This document shows positions 253 to 45,866 of a stretch of 64,000 bases of DNA, piece by piece. The DNA comes from Phoronis australis (taxonomy: Eukaryota; Animalia; Phoronida): assembly GCA_002633005.1 (NCBI GenBank), contig NMRA01000076.1, positions 310,001 through 374,000 of the forward strand, read 5' to 3'. Every line of letters starts with the position of its first letter. Positions within the stretch are counted from its first letter, which is position 1. Both the position numbers and the translations under genes were made by a program. The notes beneath the pieces are model-generated. The model had not been told where the DNA came from and searched no databases. It saw nothing but the letters and a program-made list of their open reading frames with translations.

Positions 253-418
253 CAACTTTGATCGGAACAGGGCCTGCCATGAATCGCCATTGGTATTCAA
301 AGAATGTAATGTCCTTGGTCGGCACAGGAACCTGACCGGATAGACAAAACTCCGAGCCACCGGGAAATTCCCCTGCTGTTCCAAACACGGCGGTAACAAG
401 ATATTCGACCATGTTCAT
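253..418 (-). CDS. LLTP-like gene exon 32 (last one located; gene probably continues left of the window)
   Basis: ttctag|MNMVEYLVTAVFGTAGEFPGGSEFCLSGQVPVPTKDITFFEYQWRFMAGPVPIKV|gtgagt. Confidence 0.85.
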
Positions 419-856
419 CTAGAAAGACACCACTGTGACATTAGGGTTGTGTAAAACCCTATAAAATTGTCAAAATTTGGTTAACTTTGAACATATCTCA
501 AAAATACATAATTATGAAACTCTTAGTTTGCCATGCTTTTTGCATAATTTTCCAGAACCATGCTAAAAATTCTTTTTAAAACGTTCAACTTTTTCATCAA
601 TGACTTGTGATTTTCATGCAAAAATTTGCATAAAACAAAAACAAAGTGATTAGAAAAAAGTAACTGGGTTTTTGAGATCCCATCTTGAGAACTTATTGTT
701 GATACAGTTGTTTTAGTGCTCAAAATGGTTCACTCTTTTTATTGAATTTTACTCAAAAGACAAGGTCACATGTCTGGTAGATTATTTGTAAAAAGTCAAA
801 AATCCAAGTTTTCAAACAGAATTCAACTAAAATCTTATGCATTGGCAATGTCTTAC

Positions 857-1002
857 GTTGGAAGATATGGCGTCTCTGATCTCGTTCATCAGTTGCATAA
901 TCTCGCTGCTCTTCTCTCCGCACATTATGAGTTCCGTCGTCAAATCAACCAACGGCAGAGCTTGCATACCCCGGGCATTTAGAGCATTGTCCGACTCACC
1001 GT
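857..1002 (-). CDS. LLTP-like gene exon 31
   Basis: tttcag|GESDNALNARGMQALPLVDL...EIRDAISSN|gtaaga. Confidence 0.82.
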
Positions 1003-2303
1003 CTGAAAGGGGCGTGGCAACAAAATCAACCAACAACACTTGACTGACACGGAAGCATAAACATTAAAATTGATAACCAGTGAAACAAGACACTAACTGT
1101 CCAAGAAATTAAATCTAATAACACATGACATTATTCGCAATCCTCATCTCGTTTTACTCTCATGCAACATAACTCGTGGCGTACCCCGCGCAAAATAGAT
1201 TACAATGATTGTGAAAAATATCAAATATCCGCATACCTGAAAGTCTATATTATGTTGTAAAACATGTAACAAAAATCAAACGGGCTGCACAAAGCACCGG
1301 TACTCACGTACTGGACTACGTTCTAATAGTAATTAAAATACAGGTAAAACACCGAACGGAAAAGTAGTTTATGATCGACATATGTCCCAAATAATAGATA
1401 AATGATACGTGCGCCGCAAGCTCGTTACCAGAGATGAAAAGGAGACCGAGGTAGGCGATATAAGGTCATTTATTATGACTAGTACAATTAATAAAATAAA
1501 TACACGTAAAAAAATGAGTTTTTGACGTACAATAATGTGGCCGAAACAAGGTGAACTGAAAGCGAGGTTAGGAAAAACTCCCCTAAAGACACATGACAAT
1601 CATCAGCCTATAAGAGCCAAGAGCTGACCAAACTCGAGGCACGTGATAACAGCCGACCAATGCGAAGGCTGGGAAACCGACGTGTAGTCCTACACAAGGG
1701 AATAATGGAATAGACAGACATGAGGGGGAAAAGGAGTAAGACAGGTCCATATGCTCACATCAATATATTAAACAAGTGAAATACCATTTCTCTTTGGGGC
1801 ATGGTAAATGCACCTAGATGAGGTTCTGTAACTGCTTTAAATTGGTTCATAACTAGCATGCAGCCCATTTTGAGAACATTGGGATGACCCAAGTTGTACA
1901 TCAGCTAAACGTGCCACGGATTTGTTGACCAAGTCTCATCTTCTGGGTTTCGCAATTCGGTGAAAGTACTGTGCAATTAGGCCAATAACCCATGTATGCA
2001 AACACTCGAGCCCAACTCTTATATGAATTCATTTCCATATCCTCATTTTGGAAGTAACACTAAAAATACCCTTTGTATCGATAAAAATATCAATATTGGA
2101 ACATATTGACAAGCCATGATGTGCAGCCCTATACATACACATTACATATCTTCACCCCAAATGCCTGAACCCAAACACACCCTTGTATGTGACCCTGAAT
2201 ATTCACGTTAGAGCATTATCGTAGCTATTTGACATGGTTAATGCTGATTTTCAGCAAAACTGAATGATATGAGGATACATGGTCTAGAATATTGACAACA
2301 TAC

Positions 2304-2525
2304 CACTCTTGATGTTGCACTTCAAGCCAGCAAATGGCGGGATCTTGAACGCGATATTCTTGAAGACGAACGTGTCGGGGATACACGTGGTCATGAAAGA
2401 AGAACAGAGCTGTGCCTTGCCAATAAGATAAATGTGACTGCTGTTGGCCGTCACATTAAACTGGAACTTAGCGACCATGGCATCCATTGTGGTGCTCACA
2501 TCCACGTCAATCTCTTTGATTTTTT
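2304..2525 (-). CDS. LLTP-like gene exon 30
   Basis: tttcag|KIKEIDVDVSTT...AQLCSSFMTTCIPDTFVFKNIAFKIP...CNIKS|gtatgt. Confidence 0.85.
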
Positions 2526-5134: not shown

Positions 5135-5266
5135 TTCCGTATATCGCCTGGAAGAGCTTGTTAATCAGCGCCCCTCTGTAACCGTAACCGTCTTTTCCAT
5201 ATTTACGCAGCTTCCTGTTAATGGTGCTAGGCGACCAAGTCTTAGGGTTGGTCACTGAGAACTTGT
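5135..5266 (-). CDS. LLTP-like gene exon 28 (SAP-like motif)
   Basis: ctacag|KFSVTNPKTWSPSTINRKLRKYGKDGYGYRGALINKLFQAIYG|gtacgt. Confidence 0.82.
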
Positions 5267-9356: not shown

Positions 9357-9588
9357 CTGCACCCAACTGGGAAAGAGAGAGTTCCTCTCCGTGTACTTAG
9401 TAGGATCCACCCACTCGCCATCCTTCTTCAGCTCTTTCACTTTCTGGGAAGACCTCATTCTGCGATAGCTTTTGGGCACCTTGCGCACACTGACAAACAT
9501 GAAGTTCTTTTGCCTGTCACCAGGGGATGCTTGCATCGTTCCAATTTGCTCACCAGCCTTTGCTGGCTTCCCGCTTGATGTAACTGCC
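9357..9588 (-). CDS. LLTP-like gene exon 24 (M23-like C-terminal half)
   Basis: aaacag|AVTSSGKPAKAGEQIGTMQ...NFMFVSVRK...GEWVDPTKY...WVQ|gtgagg; KAGEQIG and VDPTKY are M23/LECT2 hallmarks. Confidence 0.88.
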
Positions 9589-11524
9589 CTGTTTGATAAC
9601 AGAAAGCAGGCCATCTAACAACTGTTTAAGATATAAATGAGCATTGGATATTTCTGCAGTGATGCATTAAAGACTGAAGTCAAGGTTTCAGAAGAAAAGT
9701 TGAATCAGGTGTTAGTAAGAATATGATGACTTGAATCGGACCCACTCACAATAATGACCATTTTCACAAGCGTACAAGTCACAGGCTTTTGGGTTTGGTT
9801 GGCTTGTTGCTAGCGCAGTTTACACTTCTGACAACATGAGAATGGTGACAGCAGTCAACCTTTTAATTACTTTTTCAAATAGAAAAACATGACGCAACAA
9901 CCAACCACAAAAAAAAACTTTAAAAAGATCCAATCAAGCAAAAACAAATATCAGCACTAGACACAGTGAGCTGCAGCTCGCACTTGCAACCTGAAACTCC
10001 GAAATACAGCATAGCTTTGAGGCACCTTGTATCAATTCGCAACATTCGACCTAATTTCCAACGTATGCGACCTGAGTTTTTATACTTCTCGGCAGATACC
10101 AGGCAAACATGAAGTAGCTTTTTTGAGCAAATTCGGTCGTTCTTTGGTTGTTGCCAAATCAAGTTTAAAAGAACACTAACACAGAACAATCCTGTCGATG
10201 ACTTTGTGAACATGTCGTGTGAACATGGGATAATGCAGAATTGATCTTCGACGCGTTGGCACTGGCGAGTGATTTCGGCTACTTTTGCCAAGGGCTGAAG
10301 AAAATTTCGGATCACAGCATAATTCGCGATACAACATCACAAAACAGCCATGTTTCCTCTATTCTTAAACGGTCAACTTACCAAAACTTTGTGGTGGAAA
10401 TTTTTTTTATTTTTCATGTAAGATGTCCTGGTTATCCAATTGAAATATCCCCAAGACAATATCGCACTGCGGCACTGCAACTGGTCATGTCCCACTGCTT
10501 GCGTGCAATGTCCTGGCAGATGATCACAATTTGGAAATGTCGTCAAGTAACAGACCGTTTCAATTTGCATTTCATTTTTATCACAAAAGATAGCAGCACA
10601 TGAAAGTGACAACCATACTAATAGCCAAACGACAGCCACGACTTAATTTAATTGTCTTTCAGCAGAGTAGTTTTGAGTCACGAAGAAATTCTCAAACCCT
10701 TGAGCACCCACATGAATGAGCCATCTCTCAATCACACGTTTGTGGCAATGTACTCCAGCGAGTGCACCACTCCAAAGCCCCACATAAAAAGAGAACAGCT
10801 GCAGTCCTACGTAAAAGAGCGCCCTGGAGTTTATTTGACAGAAAACTTAGACCTCCGGCAGTTATAAATGACCCTGCGCTTTACAATATTTAACGAGCTC
10901 AAGGCTCAATGCTCTTCAGAACCACTATTCTCCCCCATCTATGCTCATAATGCAACTTAAACAGGTAGACACAAAAATCTGGTTAGCGAACTTTTTATTC
11001 TTCTCTTCATTCACCCCCCAGCTTACCGCCAGTTTTTCACCCCCCGGGTTGTCAGTCGATCACATCGTAGATTTTTTTAAACTAGATTGGAAACAATATT
11101 GACCAGCTGAAGAAGGCCAATTAGAGACAAAATAATTCTAGATGCCTAAATAGGGTAGGTGGTAACAATATTCACACACTCATGCAAGCCTATATGGAGT
11201 TTGTCAAACAAACTCGTATTATAACTGGTCTTACTATTGCAGTCTTTCAATGTCTAGTACCGCAAACTTCATTTGGGATAATGACCATGCACACATACGC
11301 ACCATGTCACTGTACAAGGCAACACTTGTATTTAACTTTCAGGCACACTTGCTATTTTCACAGGATTCAAAATCTCGCCGTTTTTATACACTTTGGGGGG
11401 ATGGAGAAGGTGGAGAAAAACGTACGGTTTGTACACTCTCGTGAAAATGGTGACAATTGTGAAAATTCCCTCATTAATTTTCAAAAGATCCTGAAACCTT
11501 GTCAGTACATACGTTCTGAGATAC

Positions 11525-11640
11525 TTCACGTTGTACAAGAAGATGACGTATTTCTTCAGACTGCCTTTTGTAGGTTCGATTCGAATTCTTTGACGAGGAA
11601 GTTTTTCATGGTAATAAACACCAGTCACTGGGGCGACAAC
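11525..11640 (-). CDS. LLTP-like gene exon 23 (M23-like)
   Basis: ttgtag|VVAPVTGVYYHEKLPRQRIRIEPTKGSLKKYVIFLYNV|gtatct; G..V.AP..G is the M23/LECT2 motif. Confidence 0.85.
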
Positions 11641-11717
11641 CTACAAAATCACAATAATTCACAGTCATCTAGTGTGCAACCTACGGTAACTGGATTTGTG
11701 GTTTAGAAACAAAGTTC

Positions 11718-11969
11718 GGGGCCCCGTTCCAAGAAAACTGACTTTATGTTAGCTAAATCTTAAATTTCAGCCAAGTTTAGGATAAAACTTACAATAAATT
11801 TACCTCAAGTTTGTTTCAAGAAGGAGATCTCAAGTTTGACTAAAGTTGTTGACTCGAGTTTCATCTTCATTTTGACTAACTTACCAGATGTGGAAGTTTC
11901 AATGTTTGGAAGTTTTAACTTCTTAAAAGACAAATCTTAGACTTAGGTCAGTTTCTTGGCACGGGCCCC
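11718..11969. mobile_element. MITE family A copy (opposite orientation)
   Basis: ggggccccgttccaagaaaactgac...gtcagtttcttggcacgggcccc. Confidence 0.75.
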
Positions 11970-12644
11970 AATATTCTAAATATAGGACGGCATGTTCAGA
12001 GATTTCAATCTTTGATTGTTAGATGTCACAAGAGTACAATAACAAGGGTTGAACTGTGGCAATATAAGGCATCCACAATAAATATTCCAGTAAACTAAAA
12101 TAACAGTTGAAGAATTCTAAAAAGCGTCACTAAGCAAAATCAACTGAGTGAGAGTGACGACAAAGACAACAACACCCAATATGACGACACTCACGACTCC
12201 ACTGATGACACAGGAAATAACAATAAAAACGCAACCAGCACTGCAACAAGACCAAGGCTGATGTGCCAAAATGACAGCAACACCACCAGTTACGATACAT
12301 AACTTCAGTGAGTTATCGAGCAGGATCTACCAAAATGGTCCAGTTGGATTTGAACCTAGACCACACTGCCTCCACAAGACTACAAGGACTATACAATTAG
12401 GTAAAAGTCACAAACAGGGGCCCCATGTTTTGAGAACCAGTTTTGTCCACCTAACAACAGGTATCGAACTGGTTCTCAATATACAGGACCCTCTAAGTGA
12501 CTACGGCCCTCAATGCCACGTTCCTGCATGCGCTGCGTCAAATTATTTCAAATTTCTATCATCAGAGTTGCAGCCCACAGTCCAGCAGTAAAACTCCACT
12601 GGCATTGGAAAGTCCAGTATATTAATGCAGCTGACAAAACTTAA

Positions 12645-12922
12645 GCAAGAGCAACACTGGAGCACTGACGTGCGCTCACGGTGCATCGCAAATGATACAT
12701 TTTTAGGGGTAAAGCTAAGATACAATACGGCTGCTTAACCAATTTGACCACAATGGGCAGCAGCAGCGAAGTATTGACATGAGATGTTCTAATAATGCCC
12801 TACACCCTTGCGCCAAATTTCATCAAAATTGGACAAGGCATTTTTGAGATATCGAGCAGACACCTGGATGCCTGGACAAAGTGACAACAATACGCAACCA
12901 CATGATATGTGGGAGCATAAAA
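12645..12922 (+). mobile_element. Short copy of the same modular repeat family
   Basis: caagagcaacac...gcgctcac start; aaatttcatcaaaat...gagat core; caatacgcaaccacat..atgtgggagcataaaa end. Confidence 0.55.
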
Positions 12923-13878
12923 GAGTACAGTGGTGTGAAAAAGAGGCTATAAATATATATCTATACCAGTCCTTTATATATGTAAATGGTGCAAGCCTGG
13001 ATATATTATGTTAAGTTTTCTGACCTAATTCTCTGTACCATTATTATACTGTTTTTATGATGTATTGCAATAAAAAATACTGCAACATTCAAATGTCGAG
13101 TAATTCGAAATGGCCATGTTGATTCAGCAATATCTACTCCTTGTCTGTTTTCCTCTGAGTTTCCGTCAGATTTGAACAAAACTCGTCAACTTTTTTAAAA
13201 ATTCATTATTGCATTCACACAAAAATTCATTTTGGTAAGTAATAAGAAAATGCATGCCAATAACCTTTAACACTTTTTATACATTCAGCAATCCATAAAA
13301 ATATCCCAATATGAAATAAAGGGGAAATGGGAGATATTGTAATAAGTTGCCAGAATCACTAATTGGCAACATTCGTACTTACACAATGACAACTGGCCTG
13401 TAACTGCAAGAAAGGCAGTCCAATGTTGGGTGAAAATAAACCAGCAGACGTATGCAACGCATAACTGCCAACATTCGAAAATGAACAAGCAAGGCATCCG
13501 GATTTAGTACACAACATTAGGAGCAACTGCTCATCACGGCATGCAGAAACACCACAACAGCATTTTTAGTCATGTTTGTGATACAGAATAAGGAAGTTGA
13601 ACGGGTAAATCCTATACAAAAACGCAAAGTTTACTTGCGTGTGTCAAAAAGTAGGAGGATGCGGGACATTCCCGCGACAAGTGAGACAGTTGGCAAGTAA
13701 GGCTTACGTAACCATGGTAACCTAGCTTAGCTACTTTAGGTTTCCTTGATTTTCAAAACACTCACGATCGAGAAACCAGGAACCATGAGGCAAATAACTC
13801 TTAAATGATTTTCTGACTTTACATAAGAGGTAGCACTTCGGACAAAAAATTAAAACCAAGCTGTTGTGTTCATCTCAC

Positions 13879-14068
13879 CTTCTGACCAGCATCAGCCAGT
13901 AACATAATGCCAATTCCTTCAGTTTTGTTGCTATAGAGATTCTTAGCAGTGGACGGCCAGTTGCCATCTCCATAATCATCTTGAGCCCCGCTACGTCTGG
14001 TTCTGGGGAATTTCTTGTGAAACTTGGCTCCAAACAACATGTTAAATGTGTCTTTGGCTTTGGTAACA
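13879..14068 (-). CDS. LLTP-like gene exon 22 (start of LECT2/M23-like domain)
   Basis: ctgcag|VTKAKDTFNMLFGAKFHKKFPRTRRSGAQDDYGDGNWPST...TEGIGIMLLADAGQK|gtgaga. Confidence 0.85.
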
Positions 14069-14462: not shown

Positions 14463-14620
14463 TATGTTTTTATCGTGTCGATAATGTCTTTTATGTTGTA
14501 GTAGACAGCCAGGATGGATTTATACAGGTCAAACAAAGGCTTGAACAGATATTCAAATGGTTCCAGCAAGTTACTTAGAGCCGAGATGAACTTCATGCCA
14601 ACCTCTTTTTGTTGTTGACC
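14463..14620 (-). CDS. LLTP-like gene exon 21
   Basis: tgttag|GQQQKEVGMKFISALSNLLEPFEYLFKPLFDLYKSILAVYYNIKDIIDTIKT|gtaagt. Confidence 0.8.
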
Positions 14621-14982
14621 CTAACATAATGAACAACACATGGTCATGGAGATCAAGAAAACAAAGCAATTTCACCAAGTCATTAATGAGTTTGGACCAT
14701 AGATCAAAAATGGTTAATTGTACACAAATACAGTTATTAAAATGATCACTTATGCATACATTTCAATATGAGAATGTTTCATAAAAATGACAAATTAGAA
14801 CTCAACCCTTGTTTTCAATCTGTACTATTGTCCTACTATAACTGAATAGCCTTTAGAGCATACTACATCCACTTTGCATTCATGTCTGCGAATAAAGTTT
14901 TTTCCATCTTATGTAAATTGGTCTAACATAAGAGAACTAATTAATAATATTCCGACAAATAATTAAAGTTAATCGTACTCAC

Positions 14983-15211
14983 CATGCTCTTCAGACCAGT
15001 GGCACCATATCCAACCTTGAAAGGTGTTGGTCGCGTGGCGTAGATTTTTAACATGTTGGAGACCTCCTTTGTGGCAAACACCATGTCAGTCTTGAGGGCG
15101 CGCAGATCCTCGCCAGGCGTCATCCAGTAGGGGAGGTTGCCTCCCTTGATGGGGAAGTTGATTTCCACGCGTTTCTTGGCACCCATCAGCATGAACATTG
15201 CCATAGCAACC
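14983..15211 (-). CDS. LLTP-like gene exon 20
   Basis: acccag|VAMAMFMLMGAKKRV...LPYWM...GLKSM|gtgagt. Confidence 0.85.
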
Positions 15212-15358
15212 CTGGGTTAGACAAAAAACAACTCACTTGCAAGAAGTGTTCTAAGAATTTCACAACATACAAGGTAGCCAGATATACTTTGTACAAAATG
15301 GCCCAGTTGGTGCTTTGACTGTGTTAACGACAACCCCACAAACAAGAAAATCGGATAC

Positions 15359-15501
15359 CTGATGAAAGCTTGCCCAAGTCCTTCCAGAGCACTAGATGGC
15401 GCTGAAATCAGTTCACCGAGGGATTGCACGATCTGTTTGCCAGTTTTCTCAAACTGCTCAATAGCATATGGGATTGTCACTTGAATGGCATCAAGAATTG
15501 T
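15359..15501 (-). CDS. LLTP-like gene exon 19
   Basis: tttcag|TILDAIQVTIPYAIEQFEK...GQAFI|gtatcc. Confidence 0.8.
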
Positions 15502-16365
15502 CTGAAAACAGTTGAAAGTACTAATTATTTGGCTCAGATTTCTTAGAACATCACGAAGCACAGAGAATCATGATATGCATAGTCCTGACAGTCAAAACCT
15601 CCTGCGTAAAGCATGACTCAATGCTAGACACACGCACAATTCAAGAACACAAAGTTTGATGATTTGAAAAGAGTCTGTTTACTATGAATGGTATAAAAGG
15701 GTATACTCGGCTATTTTGTGATGATTGCAGCTAAAAAAATAAGATACCCACCCATGTAGAGAATGGATACGAAAAAGAAACCTATTTGTGGAGAGTCTCC
15801 ATGAAAATGTCATCTTGACATAGAATTTTGCTCCAAAAACACCACCCTTTTGTAAAGGAATAATTCCATAAACCAAACATTTTGTAAGGACTCTTGAGCA
15901 GTTGTCTTTCAAACTATTAAGCCTGAAACAGTACAAGAGGAGATGCTATGATGACAAAAAGAGTACATTTATTGTACCAAACATTTAAAACTAAGGTAAG
16001 GACAATATTATTAAAAACCCGGATGTAGATTGTTAGTAGCAAATTGGAACCTTTTTTAGAGTTCCGAATTACTACAAAGTAAACCGTTATGGCATTGCAT
16101 TTTGTCACAAAAGGCACGCTTTCCTATGGAAACTGGTCATGAACAAAAATGGGGAAAACGTCACCCATCTGACCAACACATCCCGTTTCACGTCTACTAT
16201 GAAAGTACACCCTGGGGCATTGTGTCGAAATCTCCAAATTCTCCTCTTCCAGTTTGAATTCATCAGCTATAATTGTTGTAATGTGGTTGTGGTTGATCTA
16301 ACTATTGCAATTTACTTCGAATGAAATTTGCCAGGTTGAAAGTTAAACATTTTCAAACTACCAGT

Positions 16366-17403
16366 AACAAGAGCAATGCGGAGCGTTGAAATGCGCTCAT
16401 GAATGCACAGCAAATGGTGCTACTAGGGGTGCTTATTTGTATTATAAAAGTGGCCACTAGATGGGCAGAAAAACTGCCACTAAGAGGCGACACAGTAGCC
16501 GAAGTCGTCGGGAAATCATCGTCAACTATCCTCCTCACATTAAGAACATATATGCCAATTTTCACAATGATCCTTAGAGTGGTTTGGTTGTTAGAGGGGC
16601 AGATGCCAAAAAACTCGAAAACAGTAAAAATGCCCACTAGATGGCGCAAAATGCCTCGAATCTATCTGAAAACGACGGCATGTCATTGTTTCCTTAATAG
16701 AAAGCTATTACCAAAATTTCATAAAAATCTGTCGAGCAACTTCAGAGAAAAAGAACAAATTCAAATAGCCACTAGAGGCACAGCGTTTGTTCAAAAGTTG
16801 TCATCTTGTGTTGTCCACTTCATATAAATACACTTGCTAAAGTTAATATAAAGATCCTGCAGTGGGTTTAGCACATACAGTTATGAGTGCAAAAAAACTG
16901 CCACTAGGAGGTGCCACAGTAGTCCAAGTCGTCGGAAAACCATCGTCAACTGTCCTCTTCACACTAAGAACATTATATGCCAATTTCCACAATCATCCTA
17001 AGAGTGGTTTGGTTGATAGAGGGGTGGAGGCAAAAAACAGACTCGAAAACAGTAAAAATGGCCACTAGGTGGTGCAAAATACCTCAAATCCGTCTGAAAA
17101 TGGGATTATAGCATTATCTTACTAATTGATACCTATGTGCCATATTTCAAGAAAATCCGTTCAGGACCTTTGAAGATACAGACTGAGGTAAATGTAAGGA
17201 ACTAAAGTTGCCGCTAAGGGGCACACTGGTAGTTGGATCCGTGCGAAATTCGTCGTCATTTGTCGTCAGCTTCATAGAAACACATCTGTCAAATCTCATC
17301 AAGATCCTGCAAGGGGTTTAGGAGATACAGCTGAGGACGCCGGATACCTGGACAGAGGTGACCGCAATATGCACCCACATATAAATATGTTGGCGCATAA
17401 AAA
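16366..17403 (+). mobile_element. Modular non-autonomous repeat, copy 2, with internal ~425-bp duplication
   Basis: aacaagagcaatgc start; 16470-16670 is similar to 16895-17100; ends gcaatatgcacccacata..tatgttggcgcataaaaa. Confidence 0.7.
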
Positions 17404-17652
17404 CCATGACACAAGTTTTTCAGGTCACTGTTTGCTTCTTTGCTACTTAAACGAAATGTCTTGAAAACAAACAGAGATGAGGTTTAGGAGTTCAGATTTT
17501 CATTTTCTTTTCAGTTAAAAACTTCATCAACAGGGATTTTTCAGAAACAAGGAATTTTCAAAATACTCTTTTGTAATTTGTCGAGGTACACCAGAGAAAA
17601 GACCACCACAGTGGAATGGCGTTGAACTTCACGAGGTTTTTCTATGCATTAC

Positions 17653-17844
17653 CGTTACAAAATTCTCGATGTCCATTTTCACGTCATTAATGAAAAACTT
17701 GATTCTGAGAACAACTTTCCGGACTGCTGTCACCCAGGGGAGACAATTGGTGGTTTTCCCAGTCCAGCTTGCCAGCGCTTCAGCAGTTTTGACGATGTTC
17801 TTGGGAAGGTCAATAATGGTTTGAGCAAAGGATTTGAACAAGGC
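17653..17844 (-). CDS. LLTP-like gene exon 18 (amphipathic helices)
   Basis: ttatag|ALFKSFAQTIIDLPKNI...MDIENFVT|gtaatg. Confidence 0.85.
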
Positions 17845-18821
17845 CTATAAATACAACAAAGTTAATTAATGTTCAACACAAAGCAATATGTTCATGTGTA
17901 GTGCCATATTTCTTTTATGAATGGACACACATGACCTGTCGAATCATGTAATAAAAAGGGATGACAAAGTTACAACATATAACACACACTGAGGTGCAAA
18001 TTTCTTCCATTAGCTTCTTAAATATATGCAGTAGCTCAAAATAAACTGAATAACATTGAAGTTTGACAAAGTTGCTAAGCACAAAACTGCGAGTTATATA
18101 ATTATGTATTTCTTTTCGACTAGAGCACCGTTCAATTGCGGCAAATTTTCTACAAAATCTTGACAGGTGTGGCACCGCACACCTTTTCAAAATCGCGACT
18201 ACCTGCCTCACAAGTCGCAAACAAACAATTATCGACTAGGCGCCGTAACGTCTCCCGACACCCTGACTAAAGTGCGACAAAAATGCTATTTTACTGCAAC
18301 AATTGCTAAACCAACTGCCAAGTAAGCCTACCAAGTACGTCCCAGTTTGGTAGAATATGACAGAATTCTGTGGAAGCTGAAGTAGATGATAATGAAAACT
18401 ACTAATTGCAAATTCTGTGAATAGCGCAATTTCTGCGTTCGTTACGCAACTAGTAAAAAATAACGGTGTAACCGTAATGAGCAGTTTTAATGAAATTTAA
18501 CATTTGAAACTAAAGATTGGAAAATCTCAACAGCTATCTCAATACGGTATGCAAAAAAATTAAATTTTATTTTCATTCTTTTCACAAAGGACGAGTAACA
18601 CTGGCCATAAAAATGTTTACTTTTAAATTGTATACCATCAAAGCAACCCTCCATTAATGTCTTGAGAAATTATGGTTATTCCTAAAAATGTTAGAAGCAT
18701 TTAAAAATTAGCGGCTTTTGGAATTGTTTATGACTACAATGGATGAGATTTTACAGTTACGCACGTTATGATAAATTGGACAGTATTCCCTACACAAGGC
18801 ATCTGGAAACCACTAGCACCA

Positions 18822-19409
18822 AGAAACAGTGCAATGACCAGAAACAGTACAGTGACCAGAAACAGCGCAATGACAAGAGACAGCGCAATGACCAGAGACA
18901 GCGCAATGATCAGAGAGAGTGCAGTGATCAGAAACAGTGCAATGACCAGAAACAGTGCAGTGACCAGAAACAGTGCAGTGACCAGAAACAGCACAAAGAC
19001 CAGAGACTGTGCAATGACCAGAGACAGTGCAATGACCAGANNNNNNNNNNNNNNNNNNNNNNNNNNNNNNNNNNNNNNNNNNNNNNNNNNNNNNNNNNNN
19101 NNNNNNNNNNNNNNNNNNNNNNNNNNNNNNNNNNNNNNNNNNNNNNNNNNNNNNNNNNNNNNNNNNNNNNNNNNNNNNNNNNNNNNNNNNNNNNNNNNNN
19201 NNNNNNNNNNNNNNNNNNNNNNNNNNNNNNTGACCAGAAACAGCGCAATGACCAGAAACAGCGCAATGACCAGAAACAGCACAATGACCAGAAACTGCAG
19301 TAACCAGAAACAGTGCAATGACCAGAAACAGTGCAGTGACCAGAAACAGCGCAATGACCAGAAACAGCGCAATGACCAGAAACAGCGCAATGACGAGAGA
19401 CAGTGCAAT
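18822..19409. repeat. 18-bp minisatellite (GCAATGACCAGAAACAGY)n, intronic, spanning an assembly gap
   Basis: Tandem units visible on both sides of the 190-N gap (19041-19230). Confidence 0.95.
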
Positions 19410-19665
19410 AAAAACGAAACATTACAACATGAACAACCAATCACGCTGCTAGTTAGCTTGATCCTTACTACCTAGTGAAACACTTAACTTTCAGTATTCA
19501 CATGATTTTGCGTGCTTTGTGGGATCTTGTTTTTTGGCATTAAGATTCTCTTGTCAATGGAATGCACCCGATATACCCAGAAGTCCTATAGCTAGTGTGC
19601 CTACACATACCACAACTACTGATACTTCACAACACTTTACTTATGGTATAGAGTTGTTTACTTAC

Positions 19666-19803
19666 TCCAAAGCCACCTTGCTTATTTATGCTCTGGAAAA
19701 TGCCCATGAAACTATCGACAGCAGTCTCAATGGGTGTGACGAACTGGTCGTAAAGTGTGTCAAAAATGTTAACGAGATCTTGAACGGAGTTGATGCCAAA
19801 TTC
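19666..19803 (-). CDS. LLTP-like gene exon 17
   Basis: tttcag|EFGINSVQDLVNIFDTLYDQF...QGGFG|gtaagt. Confidence 0.85.
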
Positions 19804-26334: not shown

Positions 26335-26389
26335 CGTGGAATTCAAAATCTTTTCCAAAGCAAAGGTCTTCTACAGCTTTGACTGAAGC
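26335..26389 (-). CDS. LLTP-like gene exon 11
   Basis: ttgcag|ASVKAVEDLCFGKDFEFH|gtaaga. Confidence 0.8.
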
Positions 26390-27004
26390 CTGCAACAGAA
26401 AAAAAACATTAAAGATATGGCAACAATGAAAATAACAACAAAAACAACACACGACAAATTTGCAAGAAATGTCAAAATACTAGTTGGAGTCAAATTTTAA
26501 GAAATAAGTTGTGCCACAGGGTGACTTAAGCCACTGCTCTAAATGCTTTGAATTCCGATTATTCTACAAGTCAGTGCCATCTGTTGATAGTGAGATGATG
26601 CACAAATTACCAAACACTATCACAGCGAGTTTTCATGAAGCAAAGGCTCTAACTATGAAACTAATCTGCCTCGTACTAAGTCGCAATGACTTTTCTAGAC
26701 AATGGCGAAGTGCTAGTCTAACAATTTGCAGTAGGAACTGTCATGATATAAACAAAGCAGTAATACAATGACTAATGTTCAAACAATTTTACAATAAAAT
26801 AGTAATTCACAAGACAACAGCCTATAACTGTGGGGCAAATGCCGCACTGAAACAGAGCATTATGGGAGAATGCCACAGAACCAGAACAGACGCAGTGGTA
26901 TTTTGGGATGAGGCTATCGATTACATTGTTGATTAGATATAGACATTATGTCGATGCTCATGTTGGCCAATAGTGAAATATATCAAACAAACACAGAAAA
27001 ATCA

Positions 27005-27077
27005 GGAACCCCAACTGGAAACCCACCACAGGTCTCTACATTGCCGGTCTAGTGCTCTTACCACTGAGCTACTGAGG
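27005..27077 (-). repeat. Degenerate tRNA-like SINE head
   Basis: Minus strand cctcagtagctcagtggtaagagcactagaccgg; A box intact, B box decayed. Confidence 0.55.
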
Positions 27078-27787
27078 ACCCGATACCTGTGGAATTACTG
27101 TTTGCAGCCAAATGTTATGTCATCCATCCCAAGAGCGGCATTTTGCCTTTTTCACACAAGATTTGGACAATAATATAATCAGCAATGTACCAGTACGTTT
27201 TAATTAGATATAGTAGTTACACTATTACACTACAAACTGAGTGATTAGTTCCACCTTTCATCCTGCAGCCAGGTTCTATGTTCCGATGAAGTGGCTGATT
27301 TATAACCTTAGGTGGCTTGAGAAACTGGATTCATCTCTTCCAGGAGCAAAGCATTAAAAAGATACCAAACATGGTTTTGACCTATTAACAGATGCTACCC
27401 GCGGTTTTCCCATCCTGTTCTTTGAAACACAATAATGCTCTATTACCCTCGACAACACTCAAAAATTTGGAGGAAAATTTGAAAGTTCCCTTCAAAGTCT
27501 GCTAAACGGCAAGCGTGACCTACGCTTTAAGCAAATTACACGGCAACTGTGGGAAAAGACCACCCATGAAGGAGCATAATGTCCAATCTGTGACAGGGAG
27601 TAGAGTTTTTAATTGATTCCTGCCTCTAACTTGTAAAACTGATGCCAAGATGATGCATAATAGCAGGTGACAGAACATAGACTGGTTGAAAATCATCAAA
27701 ACAAGGTTTAGGTGTATCCTTTTAAGTTTAATCAGAAAAATTAATTGGAGAAGGTGTGTATCAAACGTTATTGTTTTTATACATTAC

Positions 27788-28077
27788 CTCAATAGGATAT
27801 TGCAAGACCAAGAAATGGAATAAGGCTTTACGCATTTCTTCTGTGTCTTGTTCAAGTTTTTTGAAGACATATTTTAATATCATTCGTTGGGAGATGGGCG
27901 TGTCTAGAGCAGCAATCATGTCAATCATCACATGGCGGTCATGAAAACAGACTGTTCCATTCTCACAATTAGGGCGGACGGTGAGATATTTTTCTGCCAC
28001 CTTTTCAATGTCTGCGTCGACCATAGCCTTCAGTGTAACTCTCAGACGTCGAATGCATTCAGTCCTGTTTGTATTTG
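27788..28077 (-). CDS. LLTP-like gene exon 10 (alpha-helical domain)
   Basis: ttgcag|NTNRTECIRRLRVTLK...MIDMIAALDTPISQRMI...FHFLVLQYPIE|gtaatg. Confidence 0.85.
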
Positions 28078-28697
28078 CTGCAATGAACATCAAAATTCCA
28101 CAAAATATTCTGCGTAACAATTAAATTAAAGCATCTGGCTGGTTAATAGGGAGACAATGAAACGTAGCTGTACCACGATCATGGCATATCTACGAAATTC
28201 GACTTTTTAAACTAAAAGCAAAAATAGAAATCGGAAACAAAATGGCCGCCACGTCCGCCATTTTGAATCCGATCATGACGAAAAACAATAGGCTTCCAGG
28301 ACCTTCCGATCTACACGTTGTGTGCAAATTTCGTGGGAATCTGACGAAAACTGCGACCTGTAGAAAGCGAACAAAAAAAAATGATGTCAGACCAACATAC
28401 TTGGCGGAATTTTAATTCCACCAAGTAACAAAGGTATTTTGGAGCGTGTTCAACACATCAGGAAATTGCACTGTAGAAAATTTGATTTTTGTGTCGTGTC
28501 ATGTTCCCATTAATATCTCATTTTGCCTGATGTTGTTATTGACTCTTAGGCCACACTGGTGCACATACCATTACCTCGTAGTTACTAATAAAAACTCCTA
28601 CAAGTATAGCCAACATTACACCACACAAACGCTAGCTATTCCATACCACAAGCAATGCAAACCAATTAATCATGCTGAACAAATAATTAGAACATAC

Positions 28698-28785
28698 TTT
28701 TCACGGGAGTGATGCGGCTACAGTTCATCTCTTTCTCAATATCCACCATTGCAGCGTCGGAATCTGTGATAACTTTGGCTTTGGG
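28698..28785 (-). CDS. LLTP-like gene exon 9
   Basis: tttccag|PKAKVITDSDAAMVDIEKEMNCSRITPVK|gtatgt. Confidence 0.75.
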
Positions 28786-29175
28786 CTGGAAAGGACGTGC
28801 AATTGAAGTAAGATTTTCTCGTTTCTGAGGACCACAAGGTCTACATCGTGGAATACAGTCAAGATGCACTTGCTGAATTCAATAACCGTAAGTAATACGC
28901 CTTTGTAACGGAACTTCCAAGAAATTCGGATTCAATTGAAAAAAGGTTATTTGCTGATTGACTTAAAATGATCAGTGAATGCAAATGACAAGTGAGCGTA
29001 CATTTAAGCAGAATAGAAAATGTTTAAAATTACTCAATGGCTTCAAAGTAGGATATAGTACGTGAAATGAGGCATTCGGATAGCTGGATTGAGGATAGGT
29101 ATATAGTGACACTGAGGTCCAAGAGGCTACAAAGAAGCCAAGAATATTTACAGGGTATTAATAAATTCTTTTAAA

Positions 29176-30123: not shown

Positions 30124-30245
30124 CTGTTCAACTTCAATCGACTGCTTGACCAGCGTGTCCCTGACCATTTTGATTGGTTCACTGTGAGATAGTTGATTGG
30201 TCAAATGGAGATGAGTGTGCGACATCGTGTATAACGTGGGGAAAT
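30124..30245 (-). CDS. LLTP-like gene exon 8
   Basis: cgccag|(D)FPTLYTMSHTHLHLTNQ...SIEVEQ|gtgagc. Confidence 0.8.
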
Positions 30246-30744
30246 CTGGCGAAAAATACAAGTCATGATAATGATATTTGTTTGACTTGTGTAAACATAA
30301 TGGCATTTAATACCAATTAACAGAACGCTTTTGTACAGGGAAATGAGTCAAATGTCTTCTATCAAATTCTATAGGACCTAAGGCTTTTTGAAATACAATA
30401 GCCTCGCATATGGAGCTCATTTTGACACCTAAGTACTTCACCAACAAAGCAACTCGAGTGTTTACACAGAACTACTATTGACAGATTTGGGGTTTGTGTT
30501 AAACCTGCCCAAGAGCAAAACGTACGCAATTACATGGTGAGCAAAGATCATTTTTTGAACCCTCTAACTTTTTAGGACATACTACAGTACCTCTCGTACA
30601 CATCCTCTACCTTTTTTCATACTATAAGAGGTGTGTTCTAAAAAGATTGAGAAAATCTTCTGTGCTTCTCCCAGTCTAACCCAAAAGAAGAAACTGTAAA
30701 CATAGCGTTTTCAACTTTGAGACTTTAGTTAAAGTTTTACACAC

Positions 30745-30892
30745 CACCACTGCTTTCCTCAGGTATCTCTGCCAGTCCCTCATACTTTGTGTTATGCTGG
30801 TAGACTTCAGCCAGAGAGATTCTGTTCTTAAGAATGATCTTGTCCACCGACTCCACTCTGTGTATGGTTCCGTCATTGTTGATGTGGATTGT
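30745..30892 (-). CDS. LLTP-like gene exon 7
   Basis: tttcag|TIHINNDGTIHRVESVDKIILKNR...EESSG|gtgtgt; donor could be 3 nt off. Confidence 0.75.
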
Positions 30893-31352
30893 CTGAAAAG
30901 GTGAATGTAAGTATGCTTCACATTTAAATCAATGGTCTAAAACAGAAGTCACTGGTGTAGCCTACAATGCACGAGTATACTATCGCTGGGGTCTAACCAT
31001 AGTGTATTTGGCAATGAACACCCATAACAGAAGTGGCCTCTATCGGACCACATCAATTCCAGAATTTTGGAATGGTTATTTTGCGTGTTGTGGGTAATTC
31101 TGGGAACTTGGGACTGCTGCAGGTATTGTATATTATTTTTTCTAAAATTTGGTACAACCTCCAACCTTGAGTAGAGTAAATGATTTTCACTGTCCCAAAT
31201 TGGGGAATTTGAACCATAAATACAAAGCTGGTGTTTGACAGAAGGCATGGGTTTTGCGCCCCTTTAAGACAATGAAATTCTCTGCCTCTAATCATTTTAT
31301 CCAAGAACCTAGGCAGCACAGTACGCTGCTGAAGAGTGAAGTCAATGGTCAC

Positions 31353-31499
31353 CTTGTCGTGGTCCTTAATGACATCCGACTCATTCTTGAGTGAACGTCG
31401 AACTCTAACACCATCACTGAGATGGTCCACTTCATACTCGTATTCACCGCTGCCACCATGATCAACTTCACGCTTCTTGAACTTGTTGCTGTCACCAGG
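31353..31499 (-). CDS. LLTP-like gene exon 6
   Basis: ttgtag|PGDSNKFKKREVDHGGSGEYEYEVDHLSDGVRVRRSLKNESDVIKDHDK|gtgacc; E.D..G.....Y is an LLTP barrel motif. Confidence 0.8.
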
Positions 31500-31849
31500 C
31501 TACAAATATATCAACATCACAGCCGTATTTACAGAACATGATGTTACCTATACACACAGAGTTATGCATGCATCGCCATTGGATACTGAATTAGGAATAG
31601 CCTTGTATAAGGCAAAAGAGGAGCAGCATTAGTGGACCTCAGCAATAATCAAAGGCCTGTGAATACGAGGACCCGGATATTGTAAATAAGAGTACTGGAT
31701 TTAATATCAGTAGCCCAATCATCATTGCCAATGTAGACAGATCATTCCTGACTGACGGCTAGGGTTAAAGTGCACATTGACAGCCATTATATCCCTGTTC
31801 ACAGTCACAGCTGTCAGCGAGACACTTAGCTGGCTGCAAATATAGGCTT

Positions 31850-32079
31850 GGCACCCATTCCAAGAAACTGCCTTGACTTCATTTTGACTTAAGTCAAGGA
31901 TTCTCGATTTCCAAATTTTGAAACTTTCACATCCTGTAAGTTAGTCATAATTAATACAAAATGTAATAAGTCAAAAACTTAAATCGAACTCTTTTTTGAA
32001 ATGGACTTCAGACAAGTTTATGATCTCAAAATTGACTGAAATTTAAGATTTGTCTTGGCTAATTCTTGGAACGCGTCCC
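31850..32079. mobile_element. MITE family A copy
   Basis: ggcacccattccaagaaactg...ttcttggaacgcgtccc; internal ttttgacttaagtc shared with the 7567 copy. Confidence 0.65.
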
Positions 32080-33178
32080 TGTTCTCTATTAGACAGTACA
32101 TAATAGTCTGAACTGAGCTTCGTTGGTTCACACTAGATCTAAGCTAAACAGTACCACCATCTCCTCAAGTTAAGTAGAGATGGTGGCACTGTCTTAATTA
32201 CTCTACGCAAGCTCGGGGAATCAACGAAACTTAATTTACACACTGGAATGCTAGCGAAATGGTTGATGGAGGACCACCAAACAAGCCATGAACTGCCGTC
32301 TCAACCAGCAATGAGTAAAAGGGTCCCTCAGTGCGGTCTCCTGGCAATTTCCATGTGTCTTTCACGTGACATAACATGTCTGACCATACATTATAATGAA
32401 ATCAAATAGTTATGGTTTGAGACGACCTAGCTGCAGCTTGGTCATGCACAAGATACCCACAGCTAGGAGTACGTCACCTACTCTGGTACCCAAAGAAGAT
32501 TCTACTTCTACAAGGGACATCCAGGTGCATTAGGAGTAGAGAACCGTTTTATCAAACACTGAAAGTCAGTGTCTTTGAAGATAATGGCACATTAATTCAT
32601 AAACGGGATTTCAGGAGGCCAGCTTTGAACTTGAATATGAACTACGATCACGTTTACTCCAAATGAATAACAATGTTTCGCTCTTACAAAAGTTGTAGCA
32701 TCACCTTGTTAATAACACACCCACGACTGTCTTAGCCACAACCGTTGGTACTGCACCAAGTTCGTGCATGACGGCTAAATTTCTGATAGGCAGAAGTTGT
32801 TTCTCCTCTACAGGACCGCACAGCTGGTTGTAGGGCCTACCTATTATGTGTGGGGTGATGTGGTCTTGTCAGGGTATTACCCTGCCTAGATCACGTAAAA
32901 GGCTCGGCAATTTCAAGTATTTTTCAAAGAATAGACCAATCAGTACTCTAGTTTCTCCCTTCCATCATAGATTAAGGTATCTCGTGTGCATGCGCCGTCT
33001 CTGATACCATTCCAACTGACACTTTCCATCTCAATGAGTCAAAGGCAAGCTCGTTTGAAGCGAACTGTTGGGTCCGATAGGGAAAACAATGTTTTAACTG
33101 CGAAAAAGTCATAGGGTCTGAATTTTAACCCATGACTTCGATTTCTGTAACACTACCAGGACATTGAAATGAACTTAC

Positions 33179-33299
33179 TGGTTTATGCGCAATAAATAAA
33201 CTTGTGATGGCTTTCTTGAGCATGGAGACCTCATCGTGCTCCTCGGGATGAACATGGACGAACTCAATCAAACCGACAGGTGTGAGCTCGAACAAAAAC
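33179..33299 (-). CDS. LLTP-like gene exon 5
   Basis: FLFELTPVGLIEFVHVHPEEHDEVSMLKKAITSFIIAHKP|gtaagt; resembles the LLTP barrel motif PF.F...G.I..V......E.....KK.I.S. Confidence 0.85.
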
Positions 33300-35449: not shown

Positions 35450-35486
35450 GGTTTTGTTAAATCCCATTTCTCCGGATTGGTGGTAA
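35450..35486 (-). CDS. LLTP-like gene exon 4 (37 nt)
   Basis: ttttctatttctag|(V)TTNPEKWDLTK(P)|gtaagt; joins exon 5 as WDLTKPFLFEL. Confidence 0.75.
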
Positions 35487-35779
35487 CTAGAAATAGAAAA
35501 CATGGTCAAAGGCACATTCGTAAACGTTTCGAAATGGGTATTGAATTCCATGAAAAGTTAAAAACCAGCTGTCCTGGGAATTTCTTTGTTATGTGGTAAA
35601 TGTAACGTGCTGCAGGAAAGTTGGGAAAGCAGAACTGCTTGGTAAGATTTAATTCTTTTTTGCGCAACAAAATAAGTTCAGGTGCAAGCTTATTTTTATG
35701 TAAGCAGTCAGGAGGTTGGGTTGCCGATCAAACATATGAGAACGGTTCTTGGAAAAAGGACCATTCATCGTGCCAGATA

Positions 35780-35960
35780 CCCGCGCTTAGGCATGAGCAC
35801 TCCAGTTTGACAGTGATAGCAAGGCGAGAAAGTTGGCAATCCAATGCCAGTCTAGAACTTAGTGGCGATCCCTCGAAAAATATTGATTTAAAATTCTCCT
35901 CTGTTCTCCCTTCAAACAAACGCTGGGTTTGTTTTATATACTCATTTACAGTATTGGATG
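35780..35960 (-). mobile_element. Possible Penelope-like GIY-YIG endonuclease remnant
   Basis: EYIKQTQRLFEGRTEEN resembles YIGQT.R.L..R..EH. Confidence 0.35.
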
Positions 35961-36052
35961 TACGGGTGACCAAACCGTGGACTCATGTATTGACGTACAG
36001 TTTGGAAAACAATATCTTGCAATGCCTTATCCAATTGGCGTTTCCGACTCAC

Positions 36053-36074
36053 CGATATCCTTTCCCGTCAGACT
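36053..36074 (-). CDS. LLTP-like gene exon 3 (putative 22-nt microexon)
   Basis: tcacag|SLTGKDI+g|gtgagt; supplies the phase 0 to 1 shift needed to join the next exon. Confidence 0.45.
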
Positions 36075-36199
36075 CTGTGATATACTGTCCACGTGAAGTG
36101 AATATACCGTACCGCTTACTTCATCAATGTTCTCGTGGTGGCGAATTCGTAACTGAAATATATGTCACTCCTCATAACACATGGGCTGTCAGTGTACTA

Positions 36200-44640: not shown

Positions 44641-44660
44641 CCACTTTCTATAATACAAAT

Positions 44661-44827
44661 CAGGGGCGGATCCAGGATTTTGTGTTAGGGGGGTTGGGGG
44701 CAGGGCAGGGTATTAGCCAGGATTTTGCCCTTTTTCATACATTCTCACCCCCGAACTGCCAAATGGAATCTGGGAGAATTTTGGGGGGCATGGCCCCCTT
44801 GAACCCCCCCCTCTAAATCAGCCACTG
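44661..44827. mobile_element. 167-bp MITE with imperfect TIRs
   Basis: caggggcggatccagg...ctaaatcagccactg. Confidence 0.7.
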
Positions 44828-45698
44828 AAAATGTCTTCTACCTGCCAAAATAGTAGAGTTGTACCACAAAGGTTCGTATACAATGTTTTCACTATTTATA
44901 GGAAACTTACTTAAAAACTCTCATTTGAGAGAATATCTATTTCCAGAACACGTTAGAAACATTTTTGACCAGACCTCATTGAACACGTTGCCGAAGCACA
45001 AGTAGTTTGTTAGGTTTTCAAAAGGTTACTTTGGGACAAAATGCTCATCCACAGCTCTTTATCTTGCGAAATTATAAAAGAACTAGTGTAAATCATCTTG
45101 CAGCTTCCACGCGAAAATCTTGATGTCGTTACTTTATTTCAGAGTGTGACTGTTAACTATCGTTGCATGGAGACGGCTACCCAGACAACACAACGTATAC
45201 ACTTGTGAACCGTAGCTGATTAACCTAGATCTCACAAACGCGCGTTTGTAGTCACAAAAGATGGTTTGTTTGCTCATGAAGCTAAACGAGCAGAAGCAAA
45301 TAACGAAAATATTAATATTCAAATGGCTTGTGGTGAAGCACAGGTGACATGTAAGGTAGTTTTACGTTAAATGAAAGTGTCACGGTTTTCCAATTTCCAC
45401 CGCGTATAATCATATTGCACTTGGGGTTATTTTTTCTGAAACCTGTTCGCTCCAAAAAGTGTGGAGGATTTATATTACTGTCACTGTCAATAAAATTGGA
45501 ACTTCGATTTTAAAATGATACTTTGAATAGTTGAATATCAGGATAGGTATTCCTGAATTTCTACACGCCTGAAACTCTGGTATAGAATTCTCTACGTCAG
45601 GAGTACGCTGCCTCTCATAACGCAAGAGTGTCACAAAAGACAATTAACTAACATCAGCATTAACCAGTTGAAACTTATGAAAACTGCGACAAGCTTAC

Positions 45699-45866
45699 CT
45701 TGATAATATGAGTTACGTTCTGTGCCCCGAGTACGTCCGAGTCAGATTTGTAGATGTAGTGATAATCTATCCCGGGCAAAAATCGAACGTCCGGAGATAA
45801 CCCAAAGCCGCATTTTACACTATGAAGTAAGATGCAAAGTGACCAGATTACAGTCACCGATTTCAT
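45699..45866 (-). CDS. LLTP-like gene exon 1 (signal peptide and start of Vitellogenin_N-like beta barrel)
   Basis: gccATG context; MKSVTVIWSLCILLHSVKCGFG...RFLPGIDYHYIYKSDSDV...IIK|gtaagc. F.PG..Y.Y.Y is typical of LLTP N-termini. An in-frame upstream ATG lies at 45884. Confidence 0.85.

What the first reader, a model, noticed from the sequence alone, without database searches (positions are those of the whole stretch)
253..45866. Giant secreted chimera: lipid-transfer (LLTP) module fused to LECT2/M23-like, SAP-like and Cys-rich modules
Seen: 32 phase-compatible exons give >1,596 aa with a signal peptide and no stop. Established: classical LLTPs (vitellogenin, apoB, apolipophorin, MTP) follow Vitellogenin_N with beta-sheet lipid-cavity domains and often a vWD domain, not an M23 fold. 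Here the barrel and helical domain are followed by a short sheet region, ~290 aa of amphipathic helices, an M23/LECT2-like domain, a SAP-like motif and Cys-rich beta modules. Inference: this belongs to a functionally uncharacterised invertebrate LLTP family that may couple lipid carriage with microbial pattern recognition or matrix/egg-coat function. I recall similar 'uncharacterized' giant predicted proteins in marine invertebrates but cannot confirm that here.
Basis: partly seen in the sequence, partly recalled or inferred. Interest (0 to 1): 0.85.

Follow-up and report, generated by a model that had tools for sequence, protein, structure and literature searches.

The report
Giant vitellogenin-like protein with dead M23
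This is the front part of a real, expressed animal gene for a very large, probably secreted protein that likely joins the front half of a yolk/lipoprotein-type fat carrier to lipid-wrapping helices and to a likely non-cutting copy of a bacterial cell-wall enzyme fold, a combination I did not find described, though both domain identities rest on weak matches and its job is untested.

Summary
The gene is real. A 31-exon, minus-strand, GT-AG chain gives 1,624 aa with no stop and runs off the window; controls give chains under half as long. Exon bins carry strand-specific RNA, and 2 of 8 junctions in the second stretch tested were seen at the exact model bases. No junction chain links the lipid-carrier part to the M23 part, and exons 15-16 had no reads at a 97% cut. 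Vitellogenin_N hits one exon at E 0.045. A bacterial M23 profile lands at aa 1061-1139, reached by 4 of 501 controls. SAP got no hit. The zinc motifs are absent, so the M23 fold would be a binder, not an enzyme. Where lipid carriers have their large cavity sheet, this protein has about 290 aa of strongly amphipathic helix. Best reading: a secreted, LLTP-like lipoprotein scaffold with a dead M23 binding module (0.4). This scan noted the same architecture earlier in molluscs (e1-9816807, unchecked). Ten literature searches found no description.

The parts
45699..45866 (-). Exon 1, aa 1-56: start codon, likely signal peptide (about aa 1-19/21) and first strands of the putative barrel
   Evidence: strong donor; signal peptide by eye; no RNA laid here
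35450..36152 (-). Exons 2-3 (36152-36053, 35486-35450), aa 57-101; tentative
   Evidence: Chosen by phase and splice sites; exon 2 ranked 13th of the 15 phase-fitting candidates listed; no RNA laid
30124..33299 (-). Exons 4-7 (33299-33179, 31499-31353, 30892-30745, 30245-30124), aa 102-281: putative LLTP N-sheet barrel
   Evidence: Best place of a 4-sequence bacterial PF01347 profile is aa 99-170, E 0.08, not significant; no RNA laid
22662..28872 (-). Exons 8-13 (28872-28698, 28077-27788, 26389-26335, 25267-25109, 24083-23887, 22792-22662), aa 282-616: Cys linker and putative LLTP alpha-helical domain, with an RTKR site at aa 509
   Evidence: Two RNA joints at exact boundaries; exon 12 hits Vitellogenin_N positions 480-521 at E 0.045-0.058; exon 9 folds as five helices, generic solenoid matches
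20304..21737 (-). Exons 14-15 (21737-21556, 20449-20304), aa 617-726: short hydrophobic beta region, putative C-sheet
   Evidence: Strand periodicity and hydrophobicity; no reads on exon 15 at the 97% cut
14463..19803 (-). Exons 16-20 (19803-19666, 17844-17653, 15501-15359, 15211-14983, 14620-14463), aa 727-1012: amphipathic helices
   Evidence: Helical moment 0.354 against 0.204 +/- 0.020, 0 of 1,000 shuffles; exons 17-20 have minus-strand RNA depth of about 3-6 in run X1; exon 16 had no reads at the 97% cut
9357..14068 (-). Exons 21-23 (14068-13879, 11640-11513, 9588-9357), aa 1013-1196: basic M23/LECT2-like domain without zinc motifs
   Evidence: M23 profile hit aa 1061-1139, conditional E 0.009, 4 of 501 controls as high; HHalign P 0.0028 over 98 columns; no HxxxD or HxH in the domain, 33 K+R against 14 D+E; homologue P0003
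7180..8869 (-). Exons 24-26 (8869-8739, 8365-8240, 7325-7180), aa 1197-1330: basic linker and helices
   Evidence: Phase chain; minus-strand RNA depth of about 2-3 in X1 for exons 24 and 26
5135..5266 (-). Exon 27, aa 1331-1374: short basic motif with SAP-like spacing; identity not supported by tools
   Evidence: No Pfam SAP hit; no hit with a 3-sequence SAP profile; single-sequence model is one long helix
253..3645 (-). Exons 28-31 (3645-3430, 2525-2304, 1002-857, 418-253), aa 1375-1624: Cys-rich beta modules of no known family; the gene continues beyond the window start
   Evidence: 11 Cys; no Pfam family below E 0.04; minus-strand RNA depth of about 4-9 in X1 on exons 28, 29 and 31; donor at 253 followed by an in-frame stop if unspliced

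Best explanation
This is the 5' part of one expressed gene for a protein of more than 1,624 residues that is likely secreted and likely works as a lipoprotein scaffold: a probable vitellogenin/MTP-type front module, a belt of amphipathic helices predicted to wrap lipid, and a likely M23 fold that lacks the zinc motifs and would bind rather than cut. Steps. (1) Shown: spliced, stop-free frame and minus-strand expression at low level. (2) Inferred: ER entry by the N-terminal hydrophobic leader; no transmembrane segment (highest 19-residue hydropathy 1.45). (3) Inferred: aa 22-726 fold as N-sheet barrel, alpha-helical superhelix and C-sheet. (4) Inferred: the A-sheet, which forms most of the cavity in vitellogenin, is replaced by about 290 aa of amphipathic helix, so lipid would be held by an apolipoprotein-like belt rather than a closed cavity. 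(5) Shown at sequence level: no HxxxD or HxH in the M23-like region and a strong basic charge; inferred: it docks the particle on an anionic ligand such as peptidoglycan, a glycan or a receptor. (6) Untested: cutting at R-x-K/R-R sites (aa 174, 509, 628, 1035) and the role of the Cys-rich tail.
For: Exon chain and controls. Two exact RNA joints and strand-specific depth on 10 exon bins from exon 17 to 31. The only Pfam hit of exon 12 is Vitellogenin_N, at a profile position (480-521 of 590) matching its place in the protein, aa 526-566. A bacterial PF01347 profile picks aa 99-170 as its best place. Exon 9 is predicted as stacked helices. Amphipathicity 0 of 1,000 shuffles. The M23 profile lands at aa 1061-1139 and HHalign spans the domain to its end. 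P0003 keeps 25 of 63 positions of exon 21, keeps the Asp of the first motif and has also lost its His. Degenerate M23 folds work as binders (PMC9662197, passages). A giant LLTP precursor joined to a glucan-binding protein exists in crabs (PMC8416765, passages).
Against: No LLTP match is significant: 12.8 bits against a cut-off of 24; at least 8 of 301 controls beat the bacterial-profile score; global alignments to four bacterial proteins were no better than control regions; exon 12 against that profile gave nothing. The M23 match is weak (2.0 bits; HHalign probability 10.9%). No RNA joint links exons 11 to 31, and exons 15-16, the border between the halves, had zero depth in 3 of 3 runs at the 97% cut. 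No full-length homologue was retrieved. Amphipathic helices also build ordinary bundles. The R-x-R-R site at aa 1035 is not kept in P0003. No lipid or ligand data.
Confidence: 0.4

Rival explanations
1. One gene with the same domains, but the protein is a structural or adhesive extracellular component (matrix, mucus, egg coat). The LLTP-like front is a lipid-free scaffold and the amphipathic helices form a bundle.
For: The A-sheet that defines most of the cavity in vitellogenin (PMC12214520, passages) appears absent. The tail is Cys-rich and the protein very large. Expression in the three RNA samples is low, unlike what I recall for bulk lipid carriers.
Against: The helical moment is very high over about 300 aa. 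Low RNA level may reflect the tissue or stage sampled.
Confidence: 0.27
2. Two adjacent same-strand genes: an MTP-like lipid-transfer gene (exons 1 to about 15) and a separate gene for an M23-like and Cys-rich protein, joined only on paper.
For: No joint was seen across the border, and exons 15-16 had no reads. The intron between exons 16 and 17 holds a 190-base assembly gap.
Against: All introns from exon 14 to 21 are 0.15-2.2 kb and phase-compatible, with no stop in the chain. Reads differ from the assembly at covered exon sites (26360 in 8 of 8 reads, 27809 in 8 of 9), so the 97% cut drops reads. Depth ranges are similar on both sides in X2 and X3.
Confidence: 0.1
3. The N-terminal 700 residues are not LLTP-derived but an unrelated beta domain plus HEAT-like solenoid, and the vitellogenin likeness is generic.
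For: All LLTP scores are below significance. The exon 9 model matches only generic solenoids (best Z 6.6). The bacterial proxies themselves hit HEAT-type repeats in the PDB.
Against: Two separate weak signals fall in the right order and spacing behind a secretion leader. The beta, then helical, then beta order fits the LLTP module described in PMC12214520.
Confidence: 0.13
4. The M23-like domain is an active, zinc-dependent peptidoglycan hydrolase carried on a lipoprotein.
For: The profile match covers the whole fold. P0003 retains the Asp of the first motif.
Against: No HxxxD or HxH, and a single His in aa 1030-1200 at a non-ligand position of the alignment.
Confidence: 0.03

Closest known systems
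Large lipid transfer proteins: vitellogenin/lipovitellin, MTP large subunit, apoB, apolipophorin-II/I (Pfam Vitellogenin_N PF01347)
   Same: Secretion leader followed by a predicted beta region, helical superhelix and short sheet of about the same length and order; weak Vitellogenin_N hit at the collinear place.
   Different: No significant family score here. No A-sheet-like region after the putative C-sheet, amphipathic helices instead. M23-like and Cys-rich modules follow. No vWD within the window.
Crustacean dLp/HDL-BGBP precursor (PMC8416765, passages read)
   Same: Giant secreted LLTP (4,831 aa) with LPD_N at the front, furin sites, and a part named for beta-glucan binding: a working precedent for lipid carriage joined to microbial recognition.
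   Different: No M23 domain is mentioned in the passages read.
LECT2 and degenerate M23 (LytM) factors such as EnvC and NlpD (PMC9662197, PMC8039541, passages read)
   Same: M23-type fold without a full catalytic set, used for binding.
   Different: LECT2 is a small stand-alone protein that still binds zinc (H35, D39, H120). This domain is embedded in a giant protein and lacks all three ligands by alignment to bacterial M23 domains. No direct LECT2 comparison was possible.
Exchangeable apolipoproteins (apoA-I, apolipophorin-III; recalled)
   Same: Long run of strongly amphipathic helices.
   Different: No homology shown; here the helices are an internal region of a much larger chain.

Membership tests
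LLTP superfamily | LPD_N / Vitellogenin_N domain above the family cut-off (24 bits) | tested here: inconclusive
   Only single exons could be scanned. 1 of 28 exons hit (12.4 bits, E 0.058; 12.8 bits, E 0.045 with flanks). The spliced protein was not scanned against Pfam.
LLTP superfamily | N-terminal N-sheet (near-barrel) | tested here: inconclusive
   Bacterial PF01347 profile: best place aa 99-170, E 0.08; shuffles score higher.
LLTP superfamily | Alpha-helical subdomain | tested here: inconclusive
   Exon 9 model, pLDDT 61.6, five helices; best Z 6.6 to unrelated solenoids.
LLTP superfamily | C-sheet | tested here: inconclusive
   About 110 aa with strand periodicity after the helical region; no profile or structure.
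LLTP superfamily | A-sheet forming most of the lipid cavity (PMC12214520) | tested here: not met
   By sequence periodicity only: aa 727-1026 is amphipathic helix (0 of 1,000 shuffles) and is followed by the M23-like domain. So I file it as LLTP-like, not as a member.
LLTP superfamily | Lipid binding or transfer | not testable with these tools
   Needs biochemistry.
Vitellogenin / apolipophorin subgroup | C-terminal vWD domain | not testable with these tools
   The C-terminus lies outside the window and no genome is held.
Peptidase M23 (active) | H(x)nD zinc motif | tested here: not met
   Aligned positions are Thr and Gly (aa 1062, 1066); no HxxxD in aa 1030-1200.
Peptidase M23 (active) | HxH motif | tested here: not met
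   No HxH in the domain; the aligned stretch (aa 1147-1152) has no His.
M23 / LECT2 fold | Profile or structural match over the domain | tested here: inconclusive
   41 bacterial and phage domains: 2.0 bits, conditional E 0.009, 4 of 501 controls as high; HHalign P 0.0028, probability 10.9%; no Pfam or PDB hit per exon.
SAP domain (PF02037) | Helix-loop-helix profile match | tested here: inconclusive
   Gap-free spacing of Leu, Gly and basic residues matches three fetched SAP motifs by eye, but no hit from Pfam or a 3-sequence profile; the model is one helix.

The most novel reading that the evidence does not exclude
A separate, old branch of animal lipid carriers in which the cavity-forming A-sheet is replaced by an apoA-I-like helical belt and a dead M23 fold serves as a built-in peptidoglycan sensor: an invertebrate immune lipoprotein, and possibly the multidomain source from which stand-alone vertebrate LECT2 was released.
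Probability: 0.18. Interest if true: 0.82.

Novelty: new variant of a known kind. Interest (0 to 1): 0.5.

Why it matters
If the reading holds, marine invertebrates have an overlooked giant LLTP-like protein that holds lipid in a different way (helical belt rather than sheet cavity) and carries an M23 fold, which in mammals is known only as LECT2 (PMC9662197). It would give a concrete place to test how lipid transport and bacterial recognition were linked in animals without apoB-type particles, and where LECT2 came from. At present it is a well-supported gene with a weakly supported domain map and no functional data, and this scan has met the architecture before.

Tried and rejected
Homologue searches: word-index searches with exon 23 (29 candidates, none at E 0.01) and with exon 21 plus P0003 (120 candidates, none at E 1) covered only proteins up to 2,000 aa, so a giant family could not appear. 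The HMMER search with exon 21 gave 3 hits, of which P0001 and P0002 are bacterial repeat proteins summed over many weak stretches and were dropped. Two metagenome scans found nothing (197 and 128 pattern matches, none confirmed). The ESM Atlas gave no result. No genome is held, so the C-terminus could not be followed. No indexed RNA holder was listed; raw reads under the same species label were used instead. PDB sequence searches with exons 12, 23 and the exon 21 alignment gave nothing relevant. Fold searches with the exon 9 model listed no LLTP among the rows shown, which is no evidence either way for a 96-residue low-confidence model. Bacterial PF01347 proteins (4 of 401 genomes, then 4 of 56) were too few and too distant to prove LLTP identity. 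The 97% likeness cut removed repeats but probably also many true reads. The stretch 18.7-19.45 kb was laid in neither RNA call, so the exon 16-17 junction could not be seen. Other candidates for exon 2 (44812-44749, 37551-37422, 34055-33936 and the 37.7-38.7 kb frames) were rejected as repeat-derived or out of phase. The LECT2 structure paper PMC5016117 is not held. Literature: searches returned 0 papers; some searches returned listings with no such protein in title or abstract start. One search was weak because the underscore in the term was dropped. No supplements were read; proteome tables listing uncharacterised proteins could hold this family.

Full report
Gene model. The window is animal-type DNA (about 39% GC, 213 N) and no genome is held. 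The gene lies on the minus strand. Starting from open frames and splice sites, 28 exons from 33299 to 253 join into 1,523 residues without a stop. Exon 1 (45866-45699) gives a hydrophobic leader, read by eye as a signal peptide. Two small exons (36152-36053, 35486-35450) close the phase gap, giving 31 exons, 4,873 nt and 1,624 aa with AG/GT at every site. Those two were chosen by phase and appearance and are tentative. The last exon ends in a donor, so the gene continues beyond the window.

Is it more than chance? With untrained splice rules the best stop-free chain is 4,807 nt in 27 exons on the minus strand, against 2,026 nt in 10 on the plus strand and 1,946 nt in 12 with the model exons masked.

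RNA. No indexed RNA holder was listed, but three raw-read runs and one contig set under the same species label were offered. On 1-18,700 at 90% likeness, exon-bearing bins show coverage from one strand only, consistent with a minus-strand transcript, and a purely intronic bin shows none. Scaled to exon length this is about 2-9 in X1, 0-5 in X2 and mostly under 2 in X3 for 10 bins; bins dominated by repeats were left out of that count. The joints table was swamped by repeats: 0 of 14 model junctions among 15 rows shown, 219 hidden. On 19,450-29,150 at 97% likeness, 2 of 8 model junctions appeared at the exact bases, 27788^26389 (5 reads) and 26335^25267 (6 reads). Exons 15 and 16 had zero depth in all three runs. 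Reads differ from the assembly at covered exon sites, so the strict cut probably lost reads, but the chain from the lipid-carrier part to the M23 part is not shown.

Front module. Of 28 exons scanned singly, exon 12 hits Vitellogenin_N (profile 480-521 of 590; E 0.045-0.058), at the place expected from its position in the chain but far below the cut-off. A profile of four picks aa 99-170 as its best place, but with E 0.08, and at least 8 of 301 controls score higher; global alignments were no better than control regions. Exon 9 alone folds as five helices (pLDDT 61.6) resembling generic solenoids. The order beta region, helical region, short beta region fits the LLTP module as described for bee vitellogenin (PMC12214520, passages read), and by eye several helix patterns fit what I recall of that domain. 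This is a lead with weak, collinear support, not a proof.

Amphipathic block. Residues 727-1026 have a mean helical moment of 0.354 against 0.204 +/- 0.020 for 1,000 shuffles, none reaching it; no window reaches transmembrane hydropathy. In vitellogenin this position holds the A-sheet, which defines most of the lipid cavity (PMC12214520). So the protein appears to have half a cavity plus a helical belt.

M23-like domain. A profile from 41 bacterial and phage M23 domains hits the model once, at aa 1061-1139 (2.0 bits, conditional E 0.009; 4 of 501 controls as high). HHalign aligns 98 columns to the end of the domain (P 0.0028, probability 10.9%). The family's H(x)nD and HxH motifs (PMC9662197, passages) are absent, and the only His in aa 1030-1200 is not at a ligand position; the region is basic, 33 K+R against 14 D+E. 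LECT2 keeps three zinc ligands (PMC8039541, passages); this domain keeps none by alignment. The one true homologue found, an exon-sized frame in two unnamed ENA contigs (P0003/P0004; E 6e-4, 43% identity), keeps the Asp and has lost the His of the first motif.

SAP-like and Cys-rich parts. Exon 27 has SAP-like spacing by eye, but neither Pfam nor a three-sequence profile scores it, and its model is a single helix. The last 250 residues hold 11 Cys and match no family.

Mechanism. I commit to a secreted lipoprotein scaffold with a non-catalytic M23 binding module (0.4). Shown: gene structure, expression, amphipathicity, loss of zinc motifs. Inferred: secretion, the LLTP and M23 folds, lipid wrapping, ligand binding, processing at basic sites. 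Rivals: a lipid-free matrix or egg-coat protein (0.27), a non-LLTP front end (0.13), two genes (0.1), an active hydrolase (0.03).

Known and new. It works like an LLTP at the front but I do not file it as a member, because the domain score is inconclusive and the A-sheet appears absent. The nearest functional precedent is the crab dLp/HDL-BGBP precursor (PMC8416765, passages read). Ten searches of the paper library gave no description of an LLTP-M23 protein; most subscription papers and all supplements were outside these searches. An earlier, unchecked note of this scan (e1-9816807) reports the same architecture with a probably non-cutting domain in snails and clams. I had reached that reading before the look-up, and it is not independent evidence, but it suggests a widespread family rather than a local chimera.

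Verdict. A real gene with an unusual and apparently unstudied architecture; the domain map needs full-length homologues and structure, and the single transcript needs junction reads. Interest 0.5.

Noticed in passing
window 53882-64000, + strand: A multi-exon gene starts head to head about 8 kb upstream, with a 410-codon open frame at 61879-63108. It looks like CPLANE1/C5orf42 (name recalled; Pfam gave no real hit).
   Followed up: partly
window 29175-30055 and 50564-53851: A 388-base direct duplication at 99% beside a single N, and a 1,413-base duplication at 96.5% beside a 21-N gap: probably two haplotypes or contig ends assembled in series.
   Followed up: no
window 18822-19409: An 18-base minisatellite with a 190-N gap in the intron between exons 16 and 17.
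   Followed up: no
window 20450-20700, - strand: Short tandem, degenerate copies of the start of exon 15 lie just upstream of it.
   Followed up: no
window 42900-43700 and 37700-38650, - strand: Decayed retroelement-like coding remnants in the first introns (LINE reverse transcriptase and GIY-YIG/Penelope type by eye; labels recalled, not tested).
   Followed up: no
window 16200-17470, 24352-24580, 6240-6630, 7570-7810: Intronic repeats that draw hundreds of RNA reads from other copies; 24352-24580 looks like a short interspersed element.
   Followed up: no
window about 8656, intron between exons 24 and 25: 14, 15 and 37 reads from the gene's strand cover a spot outside the model, nearly all with the same base difference. 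It may be a repeat copy or an unmodelled exon; the frames next to the nearest acceptor hold stops.
   Followed up: partly
window 24060-24083, - strand (aa 509-525): An RTKR site followed by an acidic, tyrosine-rich stretch sits in a loop of the helical region; a possible processing and sulfation site.
   Followed up: no
L097, L098, L099/L101 (P0005-P0008): Magnetococcales encode membrane-anchored proteins of about 670 aa with Vitellogenin_N matches above the Pfam cut-off (3 of 56 genomes of the class; named), in line with note e1-9956978.
   Followed up: partly
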